The notes under the pieces are model-generated. The model was not told the origin of the DNA. It made no database searches and worked only from the letters and a program-made list of their open reading frames with translations. A stretch of 64,000 nt of DNA from a virus (lineage: Duplodnaviria > Caudoviricetes): IMG/VR virus record IMGVR_UViG_3300021400_000128, positions 64,001 to 128,000 of that record; one strand, written 5' to 3'. The first letter of the stretch is position 1; every line of letters starts with the position of its first letter. A program made the translations under genes and the position numbers. Positions 3,607-63,031 of this stretch are shown piece by piece.

Positions 3607-3648
3607 TGATTTTGTTGTTATATGACTATTTATATTTACCGGAGCATT

Positions 3649-4320
3649 TTATGATTTTTTCGTCCATTGGCCGAGAATATATCGTTGATAGTCAGCTCCG
3701 ATATACATTGATTTGTATGATTCTTTTATGGTGTCTGGAATGTATTGATTGTCATCTATTGAAAAGTTGAGATATAGTGCATTCTTTTCAGAAGATTTTG
3801 TGATCCATTCTCTGAAAAACCAATTCGATTTATCAAGTGGGGTTGTGTTGAACCAGTATCGAGAATTCTTTATTGAGCTGCACCCAATAATATTTTCAAC
3901 AAATGATTTTGGTGTCAAGGGTGCTTGATCGAAAAAGGCCCCTGCAAAATTGAAATATTGTGCTTTTTTCACTGAATCATCATCGTGTGAATTGAACAGG
4001 TAGAATTGATTTGCAGTTTTATGTTTCTTGATTAGAACGTATCTCTGTTCTCTGTTGAAATCCATATTGTATTGAGTTTTTAATTCAGCATTCGATATGA
4101 TTTGTGACACAATATTTTTACTGCACGTTTGATAACTTAATCCACATAATGCAAAATCGTTATTATCAAAATTTTTCATTGCCCATTTGATAAATGTTTC
4201 GAGGATGATGGTGCTTTTTCCCGAATGAACCGCTCCGTCACATATCAGGGTTTTGAATTTTGTGTTCGGAAAATCAAGGATCTTTTTCTGTTTTTCACTT
4301 AGCTGCATTGTTTTCTCCAT
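3649..4320 (-). CDS. Stand-alone terminase large subunit ATPase-domain paralogue
   Basis: Colinear with the N-half of 6209-7489 (LSEKQ, ICDGAVHSGKS, YWFN, NALYL, YQRYILG.W). Walker B is FDQ instead of FDE, and there is no nuclease domain. Confidence 0.8.
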   Translation of the reverse strand: MEKTMQLSEKQKKILDFPNTKFKTLICDGAVHSGKSTIILETFIKWAMKNFDNNDFALCGLSYQTCSKNIVSQIISNAELKTQYNMDFNREQRYVLIKKHKTANQFYLFNSHDDDSVKKAQYFNFAGAFFDQAPLTPKSFVENIIGCSSIKNSRYWFNTTPLDKSNWFFREWITKSSEKNALYLNFSIDDNQYIPDTIKESYKSMYIGADYQRYILGQWTKKS

Positions 4321-4345
4321 TATTGTATTTCGCGCCAGGAGTGAA

Positions 4346-5584
4346 CTACTCGGCCATAAATGACCGAGCTTCTTGCTTCATCGCTGCGTCTTGCTGTTGA
4401 AAACGTATTTTCGAACAGTAGAGGGCGCGGGCTCCACAAGCGTTATTGGTTTGGCCAGTTCCTGACCTACCATTATTCAAAAGGAATTGTCTAATTCCTT
4501 CGTTTCTAATATTGACAGCAGCATTGATATCACGGTCATGATGTGTTCGGCAGTTATTACAAACCCATTGACGGATACGTAGATCTTTCACTTCTGGATG
4601 TAATGAGCCGCAAACTGAACAGGTTTGTGAGGATGGGTACCATTTATTGATCCGTATAAGGACTTTTCCCCTGTCTTGTAACTTATAATCTAAAAAGTTC
4701 AGAAACATTCCATAACCATTATCAAGTGTCACTTTTCCGTTACCAAAGCCTTTATTAGACATTGCTTTCATATTCAGATCTTCAACACAGACCATGTCAT
4801 ACTGATTGGCTATCTCAGCAGATTTCTTGTGAAGAAAATCGCTTCTTTGGTTTGCTATATGTCTATGTACTTTTGCAATTTTTAATTTTGTTTTTTTATA
4901 ATTATTGCTTCCTTTCGTTTTATGCCGTAATTTCCTTTGTGCGTGAGTTAGCCGCTTTTGCCCTTTTCGGAAGTATTTCGGTGATCCACAAGTATTTCCA
5001 TTGGAATCAGTATATAAACCATCCGATTTATAATCGAGACCAATTGCATTCAATTCTGGCTCGGTAACAGACCTTTTATCAGAATCATACTCAAACAAAA
5101 CTGAACAGAAATATTTTCCATCATTTGTCATAGAGACGGTTGCAGATTTTAGTTTCCATCCGTCATCAGGATATCTATGAAGAATAGCTTTTACCTTTCC
5201 GATTTTTGGTAATCGTATCTTTTTATTTTCAAAATCAAGGGATACTGTTCCATTTTGATTATTAGTTGTATATGAATCCCGAGATTTCTTTTTTGATTTG
5301 AATTTTGGGCGTCCGGTTCCTTTTGCAGTGAAAAATCGTTTGTACGCATCCTGTAAATTAAGCTGAACATTTGCCAATGCTAATGAATCCACTTCACGAA
5401 GATATGGGTATTCATCTTTATACATAGCAGGGGTTGGTTTTACAATGGATTTATCCTTTTTATAAGCATTTTCCCGTGTTGCAAGCATCAAATTCCAGAT
5501 TTTCCGACAACATCCAAAGGTCTTTGCAAATAAGACTTTCTGTTCATCGTTTGGATATATTTGATATTTGATAGCTCTGTTCAT
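4346..5584 (-). CDS. tnpB: TnpB RNA-guided endonuclease
   Basis: OrfB HTH, RuvC D (IGLDY), E (VEDL), D (DRDINAA) and CxxC..CxxC zinc finger. Confidence 0.95.
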   Translation of the reverse strand: MNRAIKYQIYPNDEQKVLFAKTFGCCRKIWNLMLATRENAYKKDKSIVKPTPAMYKDEYPYLREVDSLALANVQLNLQDAYKRFFTAKGTGRPKFKSKKKSRDSYTTNNQNGTVSLDFENKKIRLPKIGKVKAILHRYPDDGWKLKSATVSMTNDGKYFCSVLFEYDSDKRSVTEPELNAIGLDYKSDGLYTDSNGNTCGSPKYFRKGQKRLTHAQRKLRHKTKGSNNYKKTKLKIAKVHRHIANQRSDFLHKKSAEIANQYDMVCVEDLNMKAMSNKGFGNGKVTLDNGYGMFLNFLDYKLQDRGKVLIRINKWYPSSQTCSVCGSLHPEVKDLRIRQWVCNNCRTHHDRDINAAVNIRNEGIRQFLLNNGRSGTGQTNNACGARALYCSKIRFQQQDAAMKQEARSFMAE

Positions 5585-5994
5585 ATTTGTACGTTGTTCT
5601 GTCTTTCGATATATTTGAGTATATTTTCTTCACTGGTAGAGCCAATTGTCTCCACAAAATAGCTACCATTCCAAAGGTGTCCTTTCCAGAGTTTGTTCTT
5701 TATTTCGGGAAATTCAAGCAATAGATGACGACCAGATATCCCTTTTAACCATCGGACAATATCTGTCACGGATAATTTGGGAGGCGAAGATACAAAACAG
5801 TGGACATGATCCATCTCCCCAACTTTCGCTTCAATGACACTAAATCCTTTTTCGTTTCCTATTTCTGCAAGTAGATCATATAATCTTTCGGAAATATTTT
5901 CATTCAATACTTTTCGACGATATTTTGTACACCAAATAATATGATAGTTGATGTTATAAACACATGTTCGTCCGTGAGTGTATTTGTTTGACAT
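5581..5994 (-). CDS. tnpA: IS200-family Y1 (HUH) transposase
   Basis: YHIIWCTKYRR, DHVH, LKG.S, LW..SYF and YIE.Q motifs. Confidence 0.97.
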   Translation of the reverse strand: MSNKYTHGRTCVYNINYHIIWCTKYRRKVLNENISERLYDLLAEIGNEKGFSVIEAKVGEMDHVHCFVSSPPKLSVTDIVRWLKGISGRHLLLEFPEIKNKLWKGHLWNGSYFVETIGSTSEENILKYIERQNNVQI

Positions 5995-6164
5995 ACATAT
6001 AGTATATCATACTATATGAGATAATTCAAATATAAGCAGGCTCAAAAATAGACTACACATAGTCAACGCTTTCATCTCCCACATGAATGAGGGAGAATTC
6101 CCGCGTCACCCTCAATTAAAAATTTTAGACTTTTCTATATTAAGCGAACATCTTTACATCTTGT

Positions 6165-33298: not shown

Positions 33299-33301
33299 AA
33301 C

Positions 33302-34593
33302 TTGACACTCCCCATGCCTAAAGGCAGGGGATTCTTGCTTCACCCACCACAGCATGATTTTCATCACGTCTTACACGATGTCCACAAGCGTTGATTCCCG
33401 TGTGTCCCACGGTATTTTCTTTTAAAATTTCCAATCCTTTATTCAGAATGTTGATCGCTGCATTAGCATCACGATTATGATGAGTTCCACATTTTGGACA
33501 GTCCCATTCTCGGATCGATAAATCCTTTACTTCAGGATTTTTATATCCGCATTGGTTACATGTCTGACTGCTTTCATAGAAGCGTGGTATTTTAACTAAT
33601 ATTCCTTTCCTGTCACTCATCTTGTATTGCAGCATTCTGAAAAATTCACTCCAACTTACATCTGCGATTGATCGTGCTAATTTATGATTTTTCATCATTC
33701 CTTTGATGTTCAGATCTTCAACACATACAACTTGATTCTCGTTTGCAAGTGTTGTTGTCACTTTATGAAGGAAATCTGTTCTGATATTAGTCACTTTTTC
33801 GTAAGCAATCGCAACTTTTATTCTCTGCTTTTCTCTGTTGTTGCTCCCCTTTACTTTTTTTGACATTCTTCTTTGTGTTCTTGCAAGTTTTTTTGCGTAT
33901 TTTTTATATGTTTTCGGATTCGGGATACTATTTTCATTACTGTCAACAAGAAAATCTTTGATCCCAACATCTATTCCAATAATGCCTCCGTTATTTGTCA
34001 ATTCAGGTTCATCTGTCTCAACACAAAGCGAAACATAATACTTTCCACTCATCGATTTACTTATTGTTGCATTCAGGATTCGTCCATCGAAGTGTTTCAG
34101 TCCTTTATATCTGACATAACCGATTTTAGGTAGCTTGATTGTATTTGCGACAAGCCTAATTCCGTTACTCTGATTTCTTGTTCTGAAAGATTGTTTTCTT
34201 TTCTTTGAATGGAACTTTGGGAATCCGGCATTCCTTTTGAAGAAATTTTGATAAGCCTTATCTAAATCCTTCAAAGTCTCTTGATATGCCATGCTGTCGG
34301 TCAGGTTTAGCCATTCTTGAGTTCCGTCTTTTTTTAGCTCCGTCAACAACCGCATCGTTTCATACATTGACACTGATTTCTTTTCTTCTTTGTATGACTT
34401 AATCCGAAGATCAAGAAAATGATTATATACATAGCGAACATTTCCAAATGTCTGCTCAATTTGGCTCTTTTGTTCTCTCGTTGGATATAATCTCGCCTTG
34501 TATCCTTTGTTCATACAACACTCACTCGAATAATATTAATATTACCGTCTTTCATCCCCATAGCTAAAGCAAGGGGCTTTTCGGCGATTTTTG
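33302..34593 (-). mobile_element. IS605/IS1341-type element (tnpB only)
   Basis: LE AAAG+CCCCTTGCTTTAGCTATGGGG after ATTAC; RE ends in TCAA at 33302. Confidence 0.9.
33318..34514 (-). CDS. tnpB: TnpB RNA-guided endonuclease
   Basis: IGIDVG, VEDL, NRDANAA and zinc finger. Confidence 0.95.
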   Translation of the reverse strand: MNKGYKARLYPTREQKSQIEQTFGNVRYVYNHFLDLRIKSYKEEKKSVSMYETMRLLTELKKDGTQEWLNLTDSMAYQETLKDLDKAYQNFFKRNAGFPKFHSKKRKQSFRTRNQSNGIRLVANTIKLPKIGYVRYKGLKHFDGRILNATISKSMSGKYYVSLCVETDEPELTNNGGIIGIDVGIKDFLVDSNENSIPNPKTYKKYAKKLARTQRRMSKKVKGSNNREKQRIKVAIAYEKVTNIRTDFLHKVTTTLANENQVVCVEDLNIKGMMKNHKLARSIADVSWSEFFRMLQYKMSDRKGILVKIPRFYESSQTCNQCGYKNPEVKDLSIREWDCPKCGTHHNRDANAAINILNKGLEILKENTVGHTGINACGHRVRRDENHAVVGEARIPCL

Positions 34594-34638
34594 GTAATCG
34601 CCCAACTGTCCGCTCAGTTCCATTTGAAAACGTGTCAT

Positions 34639-37525: not shown

Positions 37526-38782
37526 TTAGCTTCGTGGGAGGAACGCCGAATTTCTTTTTTCAACAATGTAACTATTATTAGGTTGTATCAGTTTTAATTT
37601 CTTGTAACTGACTGAACCATTATTTACCTTTGTTCCGTCCAAAGAACGGATGTCAAAATATCCACTATCTCGACGTCCAAATACAATATATGGCTTATCT
37701 TGATACACAACCATATCGAACAACCGAAATCCCCTTACTTCGTGTGGAGCTTGATTTCTCTTTTTTGCCCCACCTTTCAAAAAATTACATTTGTGTATCT
37801 GCCTGTTGTGACAGCGAACTTTTCTGTAGAAAAAGACTTCACCGTTACTCTTCGCTGTAGGATTCCCGCTGATACACCGTGCATCGATGTAATGATCCTT
37901 TGGTAACCCATTCTCAATACGAGTATGTTTTGTGATATACCCATAAGTAAGATTCACGTTAAGATATGTCTGCTTCAGTTTTCCGTAAAATGCCCATCGC
38001 ATGATTCCCATAAAAGCAGCATCTTTGAAACTCATACCGCGTTTAATTCTTTTCGGGAGATCAACTGTTCCGTTATGATATCCTTTATGACAGGTCTCAC
38101 ACAGCGTAATAAGATTGTTCGGAGCATCTCCACCGGTTTTCCTTGATTCAATATGATGCACATTCAGAATCTTATCTTTTGACTTTCCTTTACAGCATTG
38201 ACACTTATGACCATCCCTGTATAAAACATATTCACGCACATTCCAAAATCCTAACTGTTCACCCTGCTGATACTCTGCACCACTGATTTCAGGATTCTTG
38301 ATTTTCTGAATATCAAATGAAGCAACCTCCACCATTATTTTTGAAACGGGTAGTATATTATGGATTCTCCGAATAAATGAAAGATGCGTGTCAACCTTCT
38401 GCTGTACTGAAGGTGCTAACCAGCCGTCTTTCCGCTTGCGGTTATCAAATCTTGCTTTGCGATAACGTAGTTTACGGTTCCGGCGAGAGCTTCTTTGTTC
38501 TCTCCGGGATGAAAGCAATTTCACGATATCGTTTCTTACTTCAACATTTGCTTCAAATAAGACTTTTTCTTTTGTTGTAGTAGAGATACCAATCACCTTT
38601 GATCCGGCATCGACGCCTAAAGTAACCTCCTGCGTATAATTTGTTGTTTCATACGCTAACTGTATTGTGAACGGACATTTCTTGATTACCTTTGCCTTAT
38701 GCGACTTTAGGAGAATACGCACTTTTGCATGGTTCTCTGTGGGCATTAAGGGCTGTCCGTTTGCGCTTATAACATAAACCAT
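37526..38782 (-). CDS. iscB: IscB RNA-guided endonuclease
   Basis: PLMP, RuvC-I LGVDAG, RRxRR bridge helix, RuvC-II VE...FD, HNH (VHHI..NLITLC..CH) and RuvC-III H..DA. Confidence 0.97.
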   Translation of the reverse strand: MVYVISANGQPLMPTENHAKVRILLKSHKAKVIKKCPFTIQLAYETTNYTQEVTLGVDAGSKVIGISTTTKEKVLFEANVEVRNDIVKLLSSRREQRSSRRNRKLRYRKARFDNRKRKDGWLAPSVQQKVDTHLSFIRRIHNILPVSKIMVEVASFDIQKIKNPEISGAEYQQGEQLGFWNVREYVLYRDGHKCQCCKGKSKDKILNVHHIESRKTGGDAPNNLITLCETCHKGYHNGTVDLPKRIKRGMSFKDAAFMGIMRWAFYGKLKQTYLNVNLTYGYITKHTRIENGLPKDHYIDARCISGNPTAKSNGEVFFYRKVRCHNRQIHKCNFLKGGAKKRNQAPHEVRGFRLFDMVVYQDKPYIVFGRRDSGYFDIRSLDGTKVNNGSVSYKKLKLIQPNNSYIVEKRNSAFLPRS

Positions 38783-38799
38783 ATTATCGTTTTCTCCTT

Positions 38800-39074
38800 T
38801 CCTAACTCTTTTCGAGTTAATAACTCACTCCGAAGAGCGGTAAGCATACCTTCGCCAATGTTATCCCAAGGTTTTGTATGTCTGCATCACTGTTCCTTCC
38901 TCACAGAACTGTTTAAACACAGACCGTAGTGTTCGGAATTAGGTATTACGTCCCGAAGTACCTATATATTCTCAGGTAACGTAGTGCTCATGGCACTTAG
39001 GCTATTCAATGTGAATTGCTTTTCGGTTTTTGCCATCAGCAATCCCCGAAGCTTTAGCTTCGTGGGTCATTGAA
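38800..39074 (-). ncRNA. IscB omegaRNA (HEARO-like) scaffold
   Basis: TCAAT..ATTGA.TAGCCTAAG..CTACGTT..ATAGGTAC..AACATTGGCGAAG hallmark blocks upstream of iscB. Confidence 0.85.
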
Positions 39075-42031: not shown

Positions 42032-42469
42032 TCAGGCAGTCACTTTGCGAAAGCTGACCGTCGGATTCCCGATCTTCTTGGCGATCCCGATTTCAGGGAA
42101 TTGCTTTTCCAGCACTTTAAGCGTTTTCCCGTCCCATGTCGTCTTACCGGACACCCAGCACGCCATCAGGGATTCACCCTTGACCGTCGCACCGCATTCA
42201 AGAACATCGTTCTTGATTTCTGCTTCGAGCAGTCCGATCTGTTCGATCAGGTCGGCGTTCTTAGCTTCAAACTGTGCCATCAGTTCGTTATAGACGTTCC
42301 GAAGGTTGTTCAGGACATCCAGCTTTTCTTCTGTTGTTACCTTTGTCGTTACGATTTGACATTCCTCATAATGGGGATTCTCTCTCGACAATGGCAATCC
42401 ATTGAGCATAAAAGAGCTATCTCCGTGTGTCCCACGGTTCGTTTTTGTTACGATTTCGATGTTTTCCAT
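42032..42469 (-). CDS. Early protein carrying an in-frame 33-codon omegaRNA insertion
   Basis: Codons 6-38 are the TnpB reRNA scaffold; the remainder is coiled-coil plus a small C-terminal domain. Confidence 0.75.
   Translation of the reverse strand: MENIEIVTKTNRGTHGDSSFMLNGLPLSRENPHYEECQIVTTKVTTEEKLDVLNNLRNVYNELMAQFEAKNADLIEQIGLLEAEIKNDVLECGATVKGESLMACWVSGKTTWDGKTLKVLEKQFPEIGIAKKIGNPTVSFRKVTA
42356..42454 (-). ncRNA. Immobilised TnpB omegaRNA scaffold
   Basis: About 65 nt nearly identical to 61088-61153. RE hairpin collapsed to CCCCATTATGAGG, tail AATGTCAA kept, no LE hairpin. Confidence 0.85.
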
Positions 42470-60801: not shown

Positions 60802-61053
60802 TCACTCTCGCCACTCCACTAAGAACATCGGTATCGGCATCCAACGCCTGACAAGCTCTTGTGGAACAAATCCTCTGTCTATTTCATCCATTGTCGGCGA
60901 ATCTGTATAAAACAAATGCTGGCTCTTTTCGTACCATGCTACTTTGACATTCTCGAAATTCGGATATACCCACCCGATATGGATAATTATCGCCTGATGA
61001 TTTTCCGGCTGTTTATCTTTGATATCGATCCATCCGACTTGTTCACTACGCAT
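60802..61053 (-). CDS. DUF551-like protein
   Basis: Paralogue of 60072-60326; its 5' end forms the guide of the adjacent reRNA. Confidence 0.6.
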   Translation of the reverse strand: MRSEQVGWIDIKDKQPENHQAIIIHIGWVYPNFENVKVAWYEKSQHLFYTDSPTMDEIDRGFVPQELVRRWMPIPMFLVEWRE

Positions 61054-61061
61054 TTTCACGC

Positions 61062-61153
61062 TTGACACTCCCCATGCCTAAAGGCAGGGGATTCTCTCTC
61101 GACAATGGCAATCCATTGAGCATAAAAGAGCTATCCCCGTGTGTCCCACGGTT
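61062..61153 (-). ncRNA. TnpB reRNA/omegaRNA scaffold
   Basis: CCGTG-GGACA-CACGG stem-loop whose loop pairs with TGTC of the 3' tail; guide follows from 61061. Confidence 0.85.
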
Positions 61154-61163
61154 TTTATCAATG

Positions 61164-62294
61164 CTATTGTGCATATAATAACAACCCTTGTTTTCTGATA
61201 TTGATAGCAGCATTCAAGTCTCTGTTGTGAACTGTTCCGCACTCAGGACATATCCAACTCCTATCACCTAATTTCAATTCAGCATTTACATATCCGCACT
61301 GATTACACGTTTTTGAAGAAGGAAACCACTTGTCTATCGCGATGAGCTTCTTTCCACGCTCAATCAGTTTATAGGACAGAAATGTTCTAAATTGTCCGAA
61401 ACCGTTATCAGTCGTTGCTTTGGCAAGGTGTAAACCCTGTGACATTGCCTTATAGTCAATATCTTCCACGGCAATAATATCATATTGATCCGCAAGTTTG
61501 GTGCTCAACTTGTGCTGCCAATCTTGCCGACAATTGCGTACTTTTTCAAACGCACGAGCAACCTTGATTCTCTGCTTTTCCCAATTTGAGCTTCCTTTTT
61601 GTTTTCTGGATAATCTCCGTTGTTCACGTGCCAATTTTCGTTCCGCTTCACGGTAGAAATGGGGCATATCTGCTTTATTTCCTTCGCTATCCACATAAAA
61701 ATGTGGGGAACTGTAATCAAGCCCGATTGAATTTTCAGTATTCAGTTCACGTTCAGGAATATCAAGCTCATACTCAAACCCGATGGATACAAAATACTTT
61801 CCACTCGGTTCCTGGGACACTGTAGCATTCAGGATTCTTGCTCCTTCCGGTAATTTTCGGCACAGCTTTGTTTTCACTATTCCTAATTTTGGAAGGCGCA
61901 CATTCCCGTTCTCAATCCGCGTAACATTGTCGCATCCGACCGTTTGATAGGATTTTTGATTATCCTTCTTGCGCTTGAATTTCGGGAATCCAGGAGTACC
62001 ACCCTTTTTTACGTTCCTGAAGAAATTCTGATACGCAGTATTCAGGTTACGGAGCGCACATTGCAAGGCGTTTTTATCCGGTTCTTTCAGCCATTCGTAT
62101 TCATTCTTCAAGTCAGTAAGCATCTTGTTCTGCTGAAAAAATGATCTGCTTTCACCGTTTTCTTTATAAGCGGTGATTCTATCAAAAAGGAAGTGATTAT
62201 AAACAAAGCGAACACATCCGAAAGTCTTCTGAATCAGCTCTTCTTGCTGCTTATTTGGATAAATTCTGTATTTGTATGCTTTATTTGAAATCAT
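61164..62294 (-). CDS. tnpB: TnpB RNA-guided endonuclease, CRISPR-associated
   Basis: IGLDY, AVED, NRDLNAA and zinc finger all intact. Confidence 0.95.
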   Translation of the reverse strand: MISNKAYKYRIYPNKQQEELIQKTFGCVRFVYNHFLFDRITAYKENGESRSFFQQNKMLTDLKNEYEWLKEPDKNALQCALRNLNTAYQNFFRNVKKGGTPGFPKFKRKKDNQKSYQTVGCDNVTRIENGNVRLPKLGIVKTKLCRKLPEGARILNATVSQEPSGKYFVSIGFEYELDIPERELNTENSIGLDYSSPHFYVDSEGNKADMPHFYREAERKLAREQRRLSRKQKGSSNWEKQRIKVARAFEKVRNCRQDWQHKLSTKLADQYDIIAVEDIDYKAMSQGLHLAKATTDNGFGQFRTFLSYKLIERGKKLIAIDKWFPSSKTCNQCGYVNAELKLGDRSWICPECGTVHNRDLNAAINIRKQGLLLYAQ

Positions 62295-62310
62295 TTTTCT
62301 TCCTTTTTAC

Positions 62311-62461
62311 GAATTTTGCAGTCGTCTATACCCTCTTTTGGTAGGGGCTATCATCGGTTGGTATATACGTACCTAATTTAACAGGTGTCTATACCTTGGC
62401 TGCTATGTAGTAACCGGGGTTCTTTGGTATATACGTACCTAATTTAACAGGTGTCTATACC
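62311..62461 (-). CRISPR. Mini CRISPR array: two identical 36-nt repeats, one degenerate trailer repeat, two spacers
   Basis: GGTATAGACACCTGTTAAATTAGGTACGTATATACC at 62426-62461 and 62360-62395; 17/22 partial copy at 62311-62332; spacers of 30 and 27 nt. Confidence 0.85.
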
Positions 62462-62462
62462 T

Positions 62463-62560
62463 GGTATATTATCTTGTAAAATAAGGTACGAACTTCTTGC
62501 TTCACCGACCGCTCAGTGCAATCTCCACAAGCGTTATGTTCCCGCATACCCTGCGGTACA
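62463..62560 (-). ncRNA. tracrRNA-like RNA: omegaRNA scaffold + anti-repeat
   Basis: CCGCA-GGGTA-TGCGG, AACGCTTGTGGA and TGAAGCAAGAA blocks as in the reRNAs at 33302 and 4341; 62463-62490 is complementary to repeat nt 1-28 (21/28). Confidence 0.85.
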
Positions 62561-62667
62561 GTTTTAACAGTGTTTCACTGTGTTGCACTTATTATTATAC
62601 TCAATATCCTTGTTTTGTACAGGTATTAGTGTAAAATAGTGTTACACTAATTTGAAAGGCGGTTGCT

Positions 62668-62820
62668 ATGGTTTCCGATAACAATACCCGTGTCATGGTC
62701 ACTATCCCGAAAGAGTTGAAAGAACAGTTGTCTGTCATTGCAGAAAATGAAGGACGCTCCCTTTCTAACCTCATTGTCCAGATTCTAAAAAATTATGTAA
62801 ATGAATCCTTGACCCCATAG
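62668..62820 (+). CDS. Ribbon-helix-helix regulator (50 aa, below the ORF-track cutoff)
   Basis: MVSDNNTRVMVTIPKELKEQLSVIAENEGRSLSNLIVQILKNYVNESLTP; SD GAAAGGCGG. Confidence 0.85.
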   Translation: MVSDNNTRVMVTIPKELKEQLSVIAENEGRSLSNLIVQILKNYVNESLTP

Positions 62821-63031
62821 CTAAAGCAAGGGGATTGCAGACGCTTTCCCATTCAATGTTTTCCTCACGGCATTTGTTACATCCATCTTTTTCATTACAA
62901 TAATTATTTCTCGTGATAAAATAGCATAACGTCGCACCATTACATAACTGTTCTCTCTCAATTTCAGTACAAGTAATTTTCATCTCTAACTCCACATGTA
63001 ACACCGTCGAATGTAGCATTCAGTCAGCTTT

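What the first reader, a model, noticed from the sequence alone, without database searches (positions are those of the whole stretch)
61062..62851. TnpB caught becoming a CRISPR effector: omegaRNA-derived tracrRNA and mini-array inside an intact IS605 element on a phage
Seen, minus strand in order: LE, divergent RHH gene, TATAAT (62594-99), omegaRNA-like scaffold (62491-62560), 28-nt anti-repeat (62463-90), repeat, spacer, repeat, spacer, degenerate repeat, catalytically intact tnpB, ordinary reRNA, RE. The anti-repeat sits exactly where reRNAs have the RE hairpin and pairs with repeat nt 1-28, leaving the tail TATATACC. The scaffold loop has co-varied with that tail: GGGTA:TACC here, versus GGACA:TGTC (61062 and 33302 elements) and GGAAC:GTTC (4341 element). 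Both spacers start with AA, giving TACCAA in place of TGTCAA. Anti-repeat and repeat 1 are 1 nt apart, forming a natural single guide for spacer 1; spacer 2 needs the tracr in trans. No cas1/cas2 in the window. Known: Cas12 arose repeatedly from TnpB by splitting reRNA into tracrRNA and crRNA (TranC-type intermediates). Inference: an independent, still-mobile, dual-guided instance that probably borrows a host repeat and adaptation machinery. The tracr core resembles the 33318/4346 scaffolds more than the adjacent reRNA, so which TnpB uses it is open.
Basis: partly seen in the sequence, partly recalled or inferred. Interest (0 to 1): 0.95.

Follow-up and report, generated by a model that had tools for sequence, protein, structure and literature searches.

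The report
Phage TnpB with upstream guide mini-array
A jumping-gene nuclease (TnpB) on a 137-kb phage carries, ahead of its gene, a second folded guide-RNA scaffold joined to a tiny CRISPR-like array whose guides differ between close relatives; this is a real and unusually arranged example of the already described step from transposon guide RNA to CRISPR, but its targets and activity are unproven.

Summary
From left end to right end on the minus strand: a divergent RHH gene, a promoter, a 67-nt omegaRNA-type scaffold, a 28-nt anti-repeat, two identical 36-nt repeats, two spacers, a degenerate repeat, an intact ISDra2-like tnpB, and its ordinary reRNA.

Seven related loci with sequence (TnpB 82-90% identical) keep this upstream module or part of it. 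The five full scaffold copies are better conserved than tnpB itself and show compensatory base-pair changes. Every guide differs. Complete arrays hold one, two or three guides at a fixed 66-67-nt period. Relatives at 70-73% identity lack the module.

The repeat is the 3' strand of reRNA stem 4 plus the pseudoknot strand, so it is home-grown, not borrowed from a host. A long anti-repeat exists in only two lineages; the others keep 5-7 nt. Folding shows the scaffold can pair with either repeat in cis.

No Cas1 is present in the phage, and no protospacer was found.

The scaffold resembles the reRNA of another TnpB in the phage more than that of the adjacent gene, so its user is uncertain.

Verdict: a TranC-like proto-CRISPR and a new variant of a known kind. 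This scan has already noted similar phage TnpB cassettes on other DNA.

The parts
62852..62856 (-). Probable TAM (TTGAA) directly 5' of the left end
   Evidence: Sequence. LE flanks of the window, L009, L140 and L142 all carry TGAA(Y) 17-19 nt before the LE hairpin. This is inference.
62813..62851 (-). Left end (LE) with subterminal hairpin 62813-62833
   Evidence: Direct-repeat family D3 pairs it with the RE hairpin. The same hairpin is at the left end of element B and of the related loci.
62668..62820 (+). Divergent ribbon-helix-helix gene (50 aa), probable repressor of the guide/tnpB promoter
   Evidence: Pfam RHH_5, E 2.3e-11. It is present in L003, L009, L148, L149, the P0001, P0006 and P0007 contigs, and the module-less relative L142. 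It is absent in L140.
62594..62621 (-). Sigma-70-like promoter (TGTACA-16-TATAAT) for scaffold, array and tnpB
   Evidence: 10 of 12 positions. A divergent plus-strand promoter-like site at 62574-62601 faces the RHH gene.
62566..62584 (.). Perfect palindrome between the -10 box and the scaffold, candidate RHH operator
   Evidence: Sequence. Different palindromes occupy the same place in the RHH-bearing loci read there (L003, L009, L148, L149), and none is present in L140, which lacks RHH. This is inference.
62494..62560 (-). Scaffold U: omegaRNA-type core (stem-loop 1 with the pseudoknot loop, P2, P3)
   Evidence: Alignment A1 has 15 pairs, 100% paired, 3 compensatory. Covariance model R1 scores 97.7 bits here and 43.2 bits on reRNA-B.
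62463..62490 (-). 28-nt anti-repeat (5' strand of an extended stem 4)
   Evidence: Duplex with the repeat is -19.9 kcal/mol; 0 of 2000 shuffles are as good. A homologous 19-27-nt anti-repeat in L148 pairs with its repeat 2 at -20.8 kcal/mol.
62426..62461 (-). Repeat 1 (3' strand of stem 4 plus pseudoknot tail ending TACC)
62396..62425 (-). Guide/spacer 1 (30 nt)
   Evidence: It is unique in the genome, and no match was found in any collection searched.
62360..62395 (-). Repeat 2, identical to repeat 1
62333..62359 (-). Guide/spacer 2 (27 nt)
   Evidence: No match was found elsewhere.
62307..62332 (-). Terminal degenerate repeat (5' two-thirds of a repeat, no tail), abutting the tnpB ribosome-binding site
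   Evidence: D2. It is conserved at this place in every related locus, including the decayed L141.
61164..62294 (-). tnpB-C, 376 aa, catalytically intact ISDra2-type TnpB
   Evidence: Pfam. PDB 8EXA/8H1J, E 5e-85 over the full length, with D193/E277/D359 and the zinc-ribbon cysteines aligned.
61061..61153 (-). The element's own reRNA scaffold (C-type) with RE hairpin 61070-61093 and tail TGTCAA(G)
   Evidence: P3 co-varies among the related loci.
61040..61060 (-). Flanking DNA that serves as the native reRNA guide
   Evidence: By analogy with ISDra2 (PMC8612924). Inference.

Best explanation
A tnpB-only IS605-type element (LE, divergent RHH repressor gene, tnpB, reRNA, RE) has gained a second guide-RNA module in the 5' untranslated region of tnpB.

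One RHH-controlled promoter would transcribe, in order: an omegaRNA-type scaffold, a stem-4 strand (the anti-repeat), a short array of repeat-guide units, tnpB, and the normal right-end RNA. Each repeat is the 3' strand of stem 4 plus the 4-nt pseudoknot strand that pairs with the loop of scaffold stem-loop 1. The single scaffold can therefore fold with any one repeat. It pairs in cis with the adjacent repeat as a natural single guide, or with a later repeat by looping out the earlier unit. Where the anti-repeat is long, it could also pair in trans after processing. Either way, the guide that follows the chosen repeat is presented to TnpB.

The nuclease, most likely the adjacent TnpB-C, would then cut TGAA-flanked DNA matching these internal guides. 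This is in addition to the empty donor site specified by its own reRNA. The element thus carries portable targeting that does not depend on where it is inserted, which is the TranC / proto-type V logic. The likely targets are rival phages or other co-resident DNA.

Shown: the anatomy, conservation, covariation, guide turnover and variable unit number. Inferred: transcription, which protein binds the RNA, cleavage, the targets, and how new guides enter.
For: - The anatomy is confirmed.
- The module is kept or partly kept in seven related loci with sequence (L003/L008, L009, L139, L140, L148, L149, decayed L141; TnpB 82-90% identical). It is absent from relatives at 70-73% identity (L142, L143, L152, L154) and at 38-46% identity.
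- Scaffold identity is 85-100%, against 77-86% for tnpB DNA. Guides are unrelated.
- All 15 scaffold pairs are kept in all sequences, and 3 pairs show changes on both sides.
- The pseudoknot loop and tail co-vary: GGGTA:TACC (window, L140), GGTTA:TAAC (L003, L009, L148, L149), GGACA:TGTC (reRNA B and C), GGAAC:GTTC (A), GCAAC:GTTG (L004). This matches the pseudoknot and stem 4 of the solved ISDra2 omegaRNA (PMC10097598).
- Units number one to three, with a period of 66-67 nt.
- A 96%-identical TnpB on a 138-kb contig has an intergenic gap exactly 66 nt shorter.
- The anti-repeat duplex is far better than chance. Folding pairs it with repeat 1 in the short transcript and with repeat 2 in the long one.
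- In the decayed copy L141, which has lost LE and the RE hairpin, the scaffold and guide are also eroded.
- TnpB-C is catalytically intact.
Against: - No protospacer was found for any guide tested: W1, W2, L003 guide 1, the L139 guide, L009 guide 1, and the L149 array. Searches covered the phage's own genome, IMG/VR (exact 20-mers), GTDB genomes (one guide), INPHARED and PLSDB.
- The scaffold is sequence-wise closer to the reRNA of TnpB-B than to that of the adjacent TnpB-C: 43 vs 13 bits.
- Most related loci lack a long anti-repeat.
- The arrays are tiny, and no adaptation gene is present.
Confidence: 0.6

Rival explanations
1. The upstream scaffold and array are functional guides but serve a different nuclease of the phage: the B-type TnpB at 33318-34514, or any TnpB that uses the common scaffold type. 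The cassette merely rides in the C element.
For: The covariance model of the scaffold scores reRNA-B at 43.2 bits (E 7.5e-9) and reRNA-A at 19.3 bits, but reRNA-C at only 12.7 bits (E 0.32). The two core motifs are shared with A and B and absent from C. Elements B and C share the same right end.
Against: The module lies in the tnpB-C leader and is inherited with tnpB-C in every locus of that clade with sequence. Its overall size and short P3 match the 93-nt C-type scaffold, not the 115-nt B-type. A and B are only 41% identical yet share the motifs, so the motifs are an old common type, not a B signature. Co-occurrence with a B-type TnpB in the other phages could not be tested because those contigs are too short or have no DNA held.
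Confidence: 0.17
2. Transposon debris: the scaffold and repeats are leftovers of a nested or tandem insertion of a related mini-element. The 'spacers' are captured flanks with no present function.
For: Such nesting is common for IS200/IS605 and was the outcome for a look-alike case elsewhere in this scan (e1-5444865). An orphan C-type scaffold scar exists in this same phage at 42378-42441. No targets were found.
Against: There is no second left end next to the scaffold; in L140 only about 30 nt separate the LE hairpin from the scaffold. The scaffold is more conserved than the protein gene and keeps pairing through compensatory changes. Guides are replaced at exact boundaries, with a constant period and variable copy number. 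The module decays only where the whole element has decayed.
Confidence: 0.08
3. The leader scaffold is mainly a cis-regulatory decoy. TnpB binds or cuts its own mRNA leader to limit its synthesis, and the repeats are structural rather than guide-presenting.
For: TnpB is known to process its own mRNA into omegaRNA (PMC10278001). The module is in the 5' UTR, directly before the ribosome-binding site, and sits under an RHH-controlled promoter.
Against: This does not explain why the sequences between repeats are all different while their length is fixed. It does not explain why unit number varies. It does not explain why the pseudoknot strand next to each guide co-varies with the scaffold loop.
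Confidence: 0.07
4. A true CRISPR array that is fed by a host Cas1-Cas2 recognising this repeat.
For: The 36-nt repeat / 30-nt spacer geometry and the strict 66-nt period look like ruler-based integration. Guides differ between near relatives.
Against: No Cas1 is in the phage. The repeat is explained by reRNA stem 4 plus the pseudoknot strand and co-varies with the scaffold loop. The repeat itself was never searched in bacterial genomes, because both genome scans went to the scaffold pattern and one spacer. The exact repeat is absent from IMG/VR apart from this phage.
Confidence: 0.05

Closest known systems
TranC, transposon-CRISPR intermediates (Jin et al., Cell 2025, doi 10.1016/j.cell.2025.09.004). 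The paper is not held; it is known here through PMC13565253, PMC13639567 and bioRxiv 10.64898/2026.03.27.714800.
   Same: A TnpB-sized effector of the IS605 lineage next to a short CRISPR-like array without adaptation genes. The repeat and anti-repeat derive from the reRNA. The reRNA-type scaffold acts as the tracr part.
   Different: - The array and a second scaffold copy lie upstream of the gene, inside intact LE/RE, while the normal 3' reRNA is kept.
- The first unit is still fused, as a natural single guide.
- A long anti-repeat is present in only some lineages.
- The scaffold is of a different sequence type from the gene's own reRNA.
- The protein is far from the solved LaTranC (E 8e-25 over the RuvC part only).
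- Clade membership could not be tested.
ISDra2 TnpB with its right-end omegaRNA/reRNA (PMC8612924, PMC10097598; PDB 8EXA, 8H1J)
   Same: - The protein aligns full length (E 5e-85) with the same catalytic triad.
- The RNA layout is the same: stem 1, a pseudoknot formed by the nucleotides just 5' of the guide, and stem 4 closed by a UUUA loop.
- The TAM is of TTGAT/TGAA type.
- The element's own reRNA is of this ordinary kind.
   Different: ISDra2 has one guide fixed by its insertion site and no internal guide module. Here a second scaffold carries one to three portable guides. The protein lacks the ISDra2 C-terminal tail.
CauTranC9, a TnpB-sized TranC on a Caudoviricetes genome (bioRxiv 10.64898/2026.03.27.714800)
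   Same: Phage-borne, no enlarged REC/WED domains, no ISDra2 C-terminal domain, short array. Its repeat is 38 nt; the repeat here is 36 nt, or 38 if the constant AA is counted.
   Different: Clade 9 averages 414 aa, against 376 aa here. It has five repeats and spacers matching phages, and a compact PAM was shown experimentally.
Cas12f (type V-F) tracrRNA:crRNA / sgRNA
   Same: The guide-pseudoknot-stem geometry, with repeat:anti-repeat 1 equal to the pseudoknot and repeat:anti-repeat 2 equal to stem 4 (PMC10097598).
   Different: Cas12f is larger, dimeric, not flanked by IS ends, and has its array downstream. Similarity to TnpB-C is weak (E 7e-5 to 1e-8).
RHH/MazE-TnpB pairs (Altae-Tran et al. 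2023, PMC10691335)
   Same: A small RHH protein encoded next to tnpB.
   Different: [quoted passage not shown] Here the RHH is divergent, sits beside palindromes at the promoter, and the TnpB has a canonical triad. That paper also reports that conserved Cas12-array associations almost always have the array downstream.

Membership tests
IS200/IS605 TnpB (OMEGA) element | TnpB protein with HTH, OrfB_IS605 and zinc-ribbon (TNB) domains and a RuvC D-E-D triad | tested here: met
   Pfam E 1e-21 to 1e-25. Full-length alignment to ISDra2 TnpB with D193/E277/D359.
IS200/IS605 TnpB (OMEGA) element | reRNA scaffold overlapping the 3' end of tnpB and ending at the right end, with a pseudoknot next to the guide | tested here: met
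   61061-61153. Loop GGACA pairs with tail TGTC. P3 co-varies in the related loci.
IS200/IS605 TnpB (OMEGA) element | Subterminal imperfect hairpins at LE and RE, and insertion 3' of a short target motif | tested here: met
   Hairpins at 62813-62833 and 61070-61093. TGAA(Y) is found at four left flanks. Related elements sit in different gene contexts.
IS200/IS605 TnpB (OMEGA) element | Cognate Y1 transposase TnpA able to move it | tested here: not met
   The only Y1 gene of the phage is in element A, whose end hairpins differ. The element is tnpB-only, so present mobility is inferred, not shown.
TranC (transposon-CRISPR intermediate) | TnpB-like effector stably associated with a CRISPR-like array and no adaptation genes | tested here: met
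   Two full repeats plus a degenerate one here. One to three guides in the related loci with complete arrays. No Cas1.
TranC (transposon-CRISPR intermediate) | [quoted passage not shown] | tested here: inconclusive
   Repeats are the stem-4 3' strand plus the pseudoknot strand, and a 28-nt anti-repeat exists. However, unit 1 is fused to the scaffold, cis pairing with repeat 2 is predicted, and there are no RNA data.
TranC (transposon-CRISPR intermediate) | Placement in one of the published TranC clades | not testable with these tools
   Clade sequences are not held. The only solved member, LaTranC, is distant.
TranC (transposon-CRISPR intermediate) | Guide-dependent DNA cleavage with CRISPR RNA and with reRNA | not testable with these tools
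   Needs biochemistry.
Type V CRISPR-Cas (adaptive system) | Adaptation module (cas1/cas2) or evidence of spacer uptake from invaders | tested here: not met
   No Cas1 in 136,915 bp. No protospacer for any guide tested. Spacer turnover between relatives is seen, but its mechanism is unknown.

The most novel reading that the evidence does not exclude
A TnpB element that still has both transposon ends is caught in an ongoing, graded transition to a CRISPR-like system. Close relatives span several states: a fused single guide, a short or long anti-repeat, and one to three guides. New guides would enter at a fixed 30-nt length without any Cas1-Cas2, by a transposon-end or recombination-based route not yet described. 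The element would use a heterologous-type scaffold alongside its own reRNA, giving one nuclease two RNA classes, or letting two nucleases share one cassette.
Probability: 0.25. Interest if true: 0.85.

Novelty: new variant of a known kind. Interest (0 to 1): 0.6.

Why it matters
How CRISPR arrays first arose from transposon guide RNAs is usually inferred from distant comparisons. Here a set of elements 82-96% identical in their nuclease shows several steps side by side:
- a scaffold fused to one guide;
- the same scaffold with a stem-4 strand stretched into a 28-nt anti-repeat;
- arrays of one, two and three guides.

All of these sit inside a unit that keeps its transposon ends and its ordinary homing guide. 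That makes three questions directly testable in a small, ISDra2-like and therefore tractable protein:
- Can one TnpB load two scaffold types?
- Does a long anti-repeat allow use in trans?
- How do 30-nt guides turn over without Cas1-Cas2?

The upstream position of the array is also atypical. Published surveys find arrays almost always downstream of TnpB/Cas12 genes (PMC10691335). The concept itself (TranC) is already published, and this scan has met several phage examples, so this refines known biology rather than adding a new kind.

Tried and rejected
- **Protospacer searches, all negative.**
  - Own genome, up to 6 mismatches.
  - All fetched loci by blastn-short.
  - IMG/VR exact 20-mers for five guides.
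  - GTDB species genomes for guide 1.
  - INPHARED phages for the window and L149 arrays (only chance-level hits at E 5-6).
  - PLSDB plasmids.
- **Other copies of the repeat or scaffold.**
  - The exact repeat is absent from IMG/VR apart from this phage.
  - The scaffold pattern is absent from GTDB genomes.
  - In IMG/VR the scaffold pattern occurs only in the L003 contig; 111 hits to a 15-mer were filtered to 1.
- **Rfam.** No family covers the region. The only hit in the window is the HEARO RNA of the IscB.
- **PADLOC.** All three TnpBs hit Cas12f/Cas12u models about equally, so this does not discriminate.
- **Searches that could not run.** Whole-record searches of the related contigs were mostly not held. 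The TranC paper and the preprint's supplements are not held.
- **Nested mini-transposon reading.** Rejected as the main reading, for the reasons given under rivals.
- **Pfam hit to Cas_VVA1548.** This hit, on a small gene downstream in a related contig, has no counterpart signal in the window's neighbours.
- **Structure prediction and complex prediction.** Not used, because no claim here depends on them.
Full report
**What is there.** The window is bases 64001-128000 of a 136,915-bp IMG/VR phage record with terminal repeats. Reading the minus strand from 62856 to 61040 gives the following, in order:
- a TTGAA motif;
- a left end whose hairpin (62813-62833) is the partner of the right-end hairpin at 61070-61093;
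- a 50-aa ribbon-helix-helix gene on the opposite strand (62668-62820; Pfam RHH_5, E 2e-11);
- a promoter, TGTACA-16-TATAAT, at 62621-62594, followed by a perfect palindrome;
- a 67-nt structured RNA core (62494-62560);
- a 28-nt anti-repeat (62463-62490);
- two identical 36-nt repeats (62426-62461 and 62360-62395; chance expectation 0) separated by a 30-nt spacer;
- a 27-nt spacer;
- a degenerate repeat that runs into the ribosome-binding site;
- a 376-aa tnpB (61164-62294);
- the element's ordinary reRNA scaffold and right end (61061-61153).

**The protein.** TnpB-C has the three TnpB Pfam domains. It aligns over its full length to ISDra2 TnpB (PDB 8EXA/8H1J, E 5e-85), with D193, E277 and D359 at the catalytic positions and both CxxC pairs present. 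It lacks the dispensable ISDra2 C-terminal tail. The solved LaTranC matches only over the RuvC part (E 8e-25). The phage carries two more TnpBs: A at 4346-5584, with the only Y1 transposase of the genome, and B at 33318-34514. It also carries an IscB with its HEARO RNA. A, B and C are 41-46% identical to one another.

**The upstream RNA is an omegaRNA-type scaffold.** It folds into stem-loop 1, a closing helix P2 and an inner hairpin P3. It is followed by a long hairpin made of anti-repeat and repeat 1, and then by a short tail. The tail (TACC) is complementary to the loop of stem-loop 1 (GGGTA). The solved ISDra2 RNA has exactly this logic. The nucleotides just 5' of the guide pair with a distant loop to form a pseudoknot. 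Stem 4, closed by a UUUA loop, joins a 'crRNA-like' part and a 'tracrRNA-like' part (PMC10097598). The element's own reRNA and that of element B have loop GGACA with tail TGTC. Element A has GGAAC with GTTC. A distant relative (L004) has GCAAC with GTTG. The repeat is therefore the 3' strand of stem 4 plus the pseudoknot strand, and the anti-repeat is the 5' strand of stem 4.

**Related loci.** Protein-guided searches gave seven distinct related loci with DNA, carrying TnpBs 82-90% identical to TnpB-C: L003/L008, L009, L139, L140, L148, L149 and L141. They also gave three contigs known only by gene coordinates: P0001 (96% identical), P0006 and P0007. Every one of these loci read as sequence has the upstream module or a piece of it (L139 starts inside a repeat; L141 is decayed).

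- The five full scaffold copies, together with the window's, are 85-100% identical to one another. tnpB DNA is 77-86% identical, and the elements' own reRNA 80-87%.
- All 15 base pairs are kept in every sequence. Three pairs change on both sides: two in stem-loop 1 (L140) and one in P2 (L009). Only 3 of 500 shuffles reach this.
- The loop and tail change together, from GGGTA:TACC (window, L140) to GGTTA:TAAC (L003, L009, L148, L149).
- The guides are all different; 12 were seen.
- Guide number is one (L009, L140), two (window, L003, L148) or three (L149). The unit period is 66-67 nt.
- The 96%-identical TnpB on a 138-kb contig has an intergenic gap exactly 66 nt shorter than here, which suggests one unit fewer. 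This rests on gene coordinates only.
- Relatives at 70-73% identity lack the module. L142 has LE, RHH, promoter and tnpB, but no scaffold. L143, L152 and L154 have no room for one.
- Relatives at 38-46% identity have no upstream repeats.
- In L141, which has lost its left end and right-end hairpin, the scaffold has lost stem-loop 1 and the guide.

The module is therefore a recent, selected addition to an older RHH-tnpB element.

**The anti-repeat.** In the window it pairs with the repeat at -19.9 kcal/mol; 0 of 2000 shuffles do as well. L148 keeps a homologous anti-repeat. There it is the 5' part of repeat 1 that has been lost, and the anti-repeat pairs with repeat 2 at -20.8 kcal/mol. One A:U pair in the window corresponds to a G:C pair in L148 (noted by eye). 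L003, L009 and L149 keep only a 5-7-nt anti-repeat that closes a small hairpin before the tail (-8.5 to -10.8 kcal/mol), yet L003 and L149 have two and three guides. L140 lacks the anti-repeat but keeps a full first repeat.

Because the long form occurs in both loop-type subgroups, it is probably ancestral to this clade and was shortened several times. This is inference.

Folding the whole leader pairs the anti-repeat with repeat 2 and loops out unit 1 (z -2.9). Folding the shorter RNA pairs it with repeat 1. Use of later guides therefore does not require a separate tracrRNA.

**Whose scaffold is it?** A covariance model built from the six scaffolds was run over the window:

| Target | Score | E-value |
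|---|---|---|
| The upstream scaffold itself | 97.7 bits | 1.7e-22 |
| reRNA-B | 43.2 bits | 7.5e-9 |
| reRNA-A | 19.3 bits | 0.007 |
| Orphan C-type scaffold at 42378-42441 | 16.4 bits | 0.037 |
| reRNA-C | 12.7 bits | 0.32 |

Against a B-specific reading, A and B are themselves only 41% identical and still share the core motifs, so this looks like an old common type. In length (93 nt in its short form) and in its short P3, the upstream RNA also matches the C-type scaffold rather than the 115-nt B-type. Most tellingly, it is always inherited in the tnpB-C leader. I put TnpB-C as the user at roughly three to one over another TnpB.

**What was not found.** There is no Cas1 anywhere in the phage and no other repeat cluster. 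No guide tested has a match in the phage itself, the fetched loci, IMG/VR, GTDB species genomes (guide 1 only), INPHARED or PLSDB. The scaffold is absent from GTDB genomes. Expression could not be examined. Function as a guide array is therefore inferred from anatomy and evolution only.

**Mobility.** The left flanks of four elements carry TGAA(Y) 17-19 nt before the LE hairpin, close to the ISDra2 TTGAT motif. Related elements sit among different neighbouring genes. Joining the window's flanks restores a short open frame (read). The element has no transposase of its own, and the phage's single TnpA belongs to an element with different end hairpins. 'Still mobile' is therefore likely but unproven.

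**Comparison with what is known.** TranC systems are TnpB-derived effectors whose reRNA is split into tracrRNA and crRNA (Jin et al. 2025, as summarised in PMC13565253 and PMC13639567). One TnpB-sized member, CauTranC9, is phage-borne and has spacers against phages (bioRxiv 10.64898/2026.03.27.714800). About 40-50 independent TnpB-array associations have been inferred, with the array almost always downstream of the gene (PMC10691335, PMC12669027).

This locus works like a TranC. It differs in five ways:
- it has a second scaffold and array upstream of the gene;
- it retains both transposon ends and the native reRNA;
- its first unit is still fused to the scaffold;
- its promoter is apparently controlled by the RHH protein;
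- close relatives show a graded series of states.

Membership in a published TranC clade could not be tested. This scan has already recorded comparable phage TnpB guide cassettes on other genomes (e1-5466754, e1-5409076, e1-5657071, e1-5481667), as well as a look-alike that turned out to be nested transposons (e1-5444865). I tested that alternative here and it does not fit.

**Verdict.** It is a new variant of a known kind, of moderate to high interest.

Noticed in passing
window 42378-42441 (-), inside ORF 42032-42469 (-): An orphan C-type reRNA scaffold without a tnpB, flanked by short direct repeats and read through as part of a 145-aa ORF. It looks like a solo right-end scar of an element like the one studied.
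   Followed up: partly
window 33301-34600 (element B) and 61061-62851 (element C): The two elements share an identical right end of about 33 nt and a near-identical LE hairpin. Yet their TnpBs are only 46% identical and their RNA scaffolds are of different types. This suggests end exchange, or a shared transposase that is absent from the phage.
   Followed up: partly
window 37526-39074 (-): An IscB (RRXRR + HNH, 418 aa) with its HEARO omegaRNA (Rfam 130.7 bits). The phage thus carries four OMEGA-type nucleases in 64 kb.
   Followed up: no
window 4341-6100 (-): A complete IS605-type element A (tnpA 5581-5994, tnpB 4346-5584). It holds the only Y1 transposase of the 137-kb genome, and its end hairpins differ from those of B and C.
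   Followed up: partly
L141:2390-2500 and 3640-3720: An 82%-identical tnpB whose left end, right-end hairpin, scaffold stem-loop 1 and guide are all gone, while the gene stays open. It is an immobilised or decaying copy.
   Followed up: partly
L149:396-600: A three-guide array in which the pseudoknot tails of the three units differ (CAC, AAC, AGC) while the scaffold loop stays GGTTA. One tail mismatches and one pairs by wobble. The units may be unequally usable.
   Followed up: no
window 62566-62584, and the same place in L003, L009, L148, L149: Each RHH-bearing element has a different perfect palindrome between the -10 box and the scaffold, and further half-sites near the RHH start. The operator and repressor appear to diverge together.
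   Followed up: no
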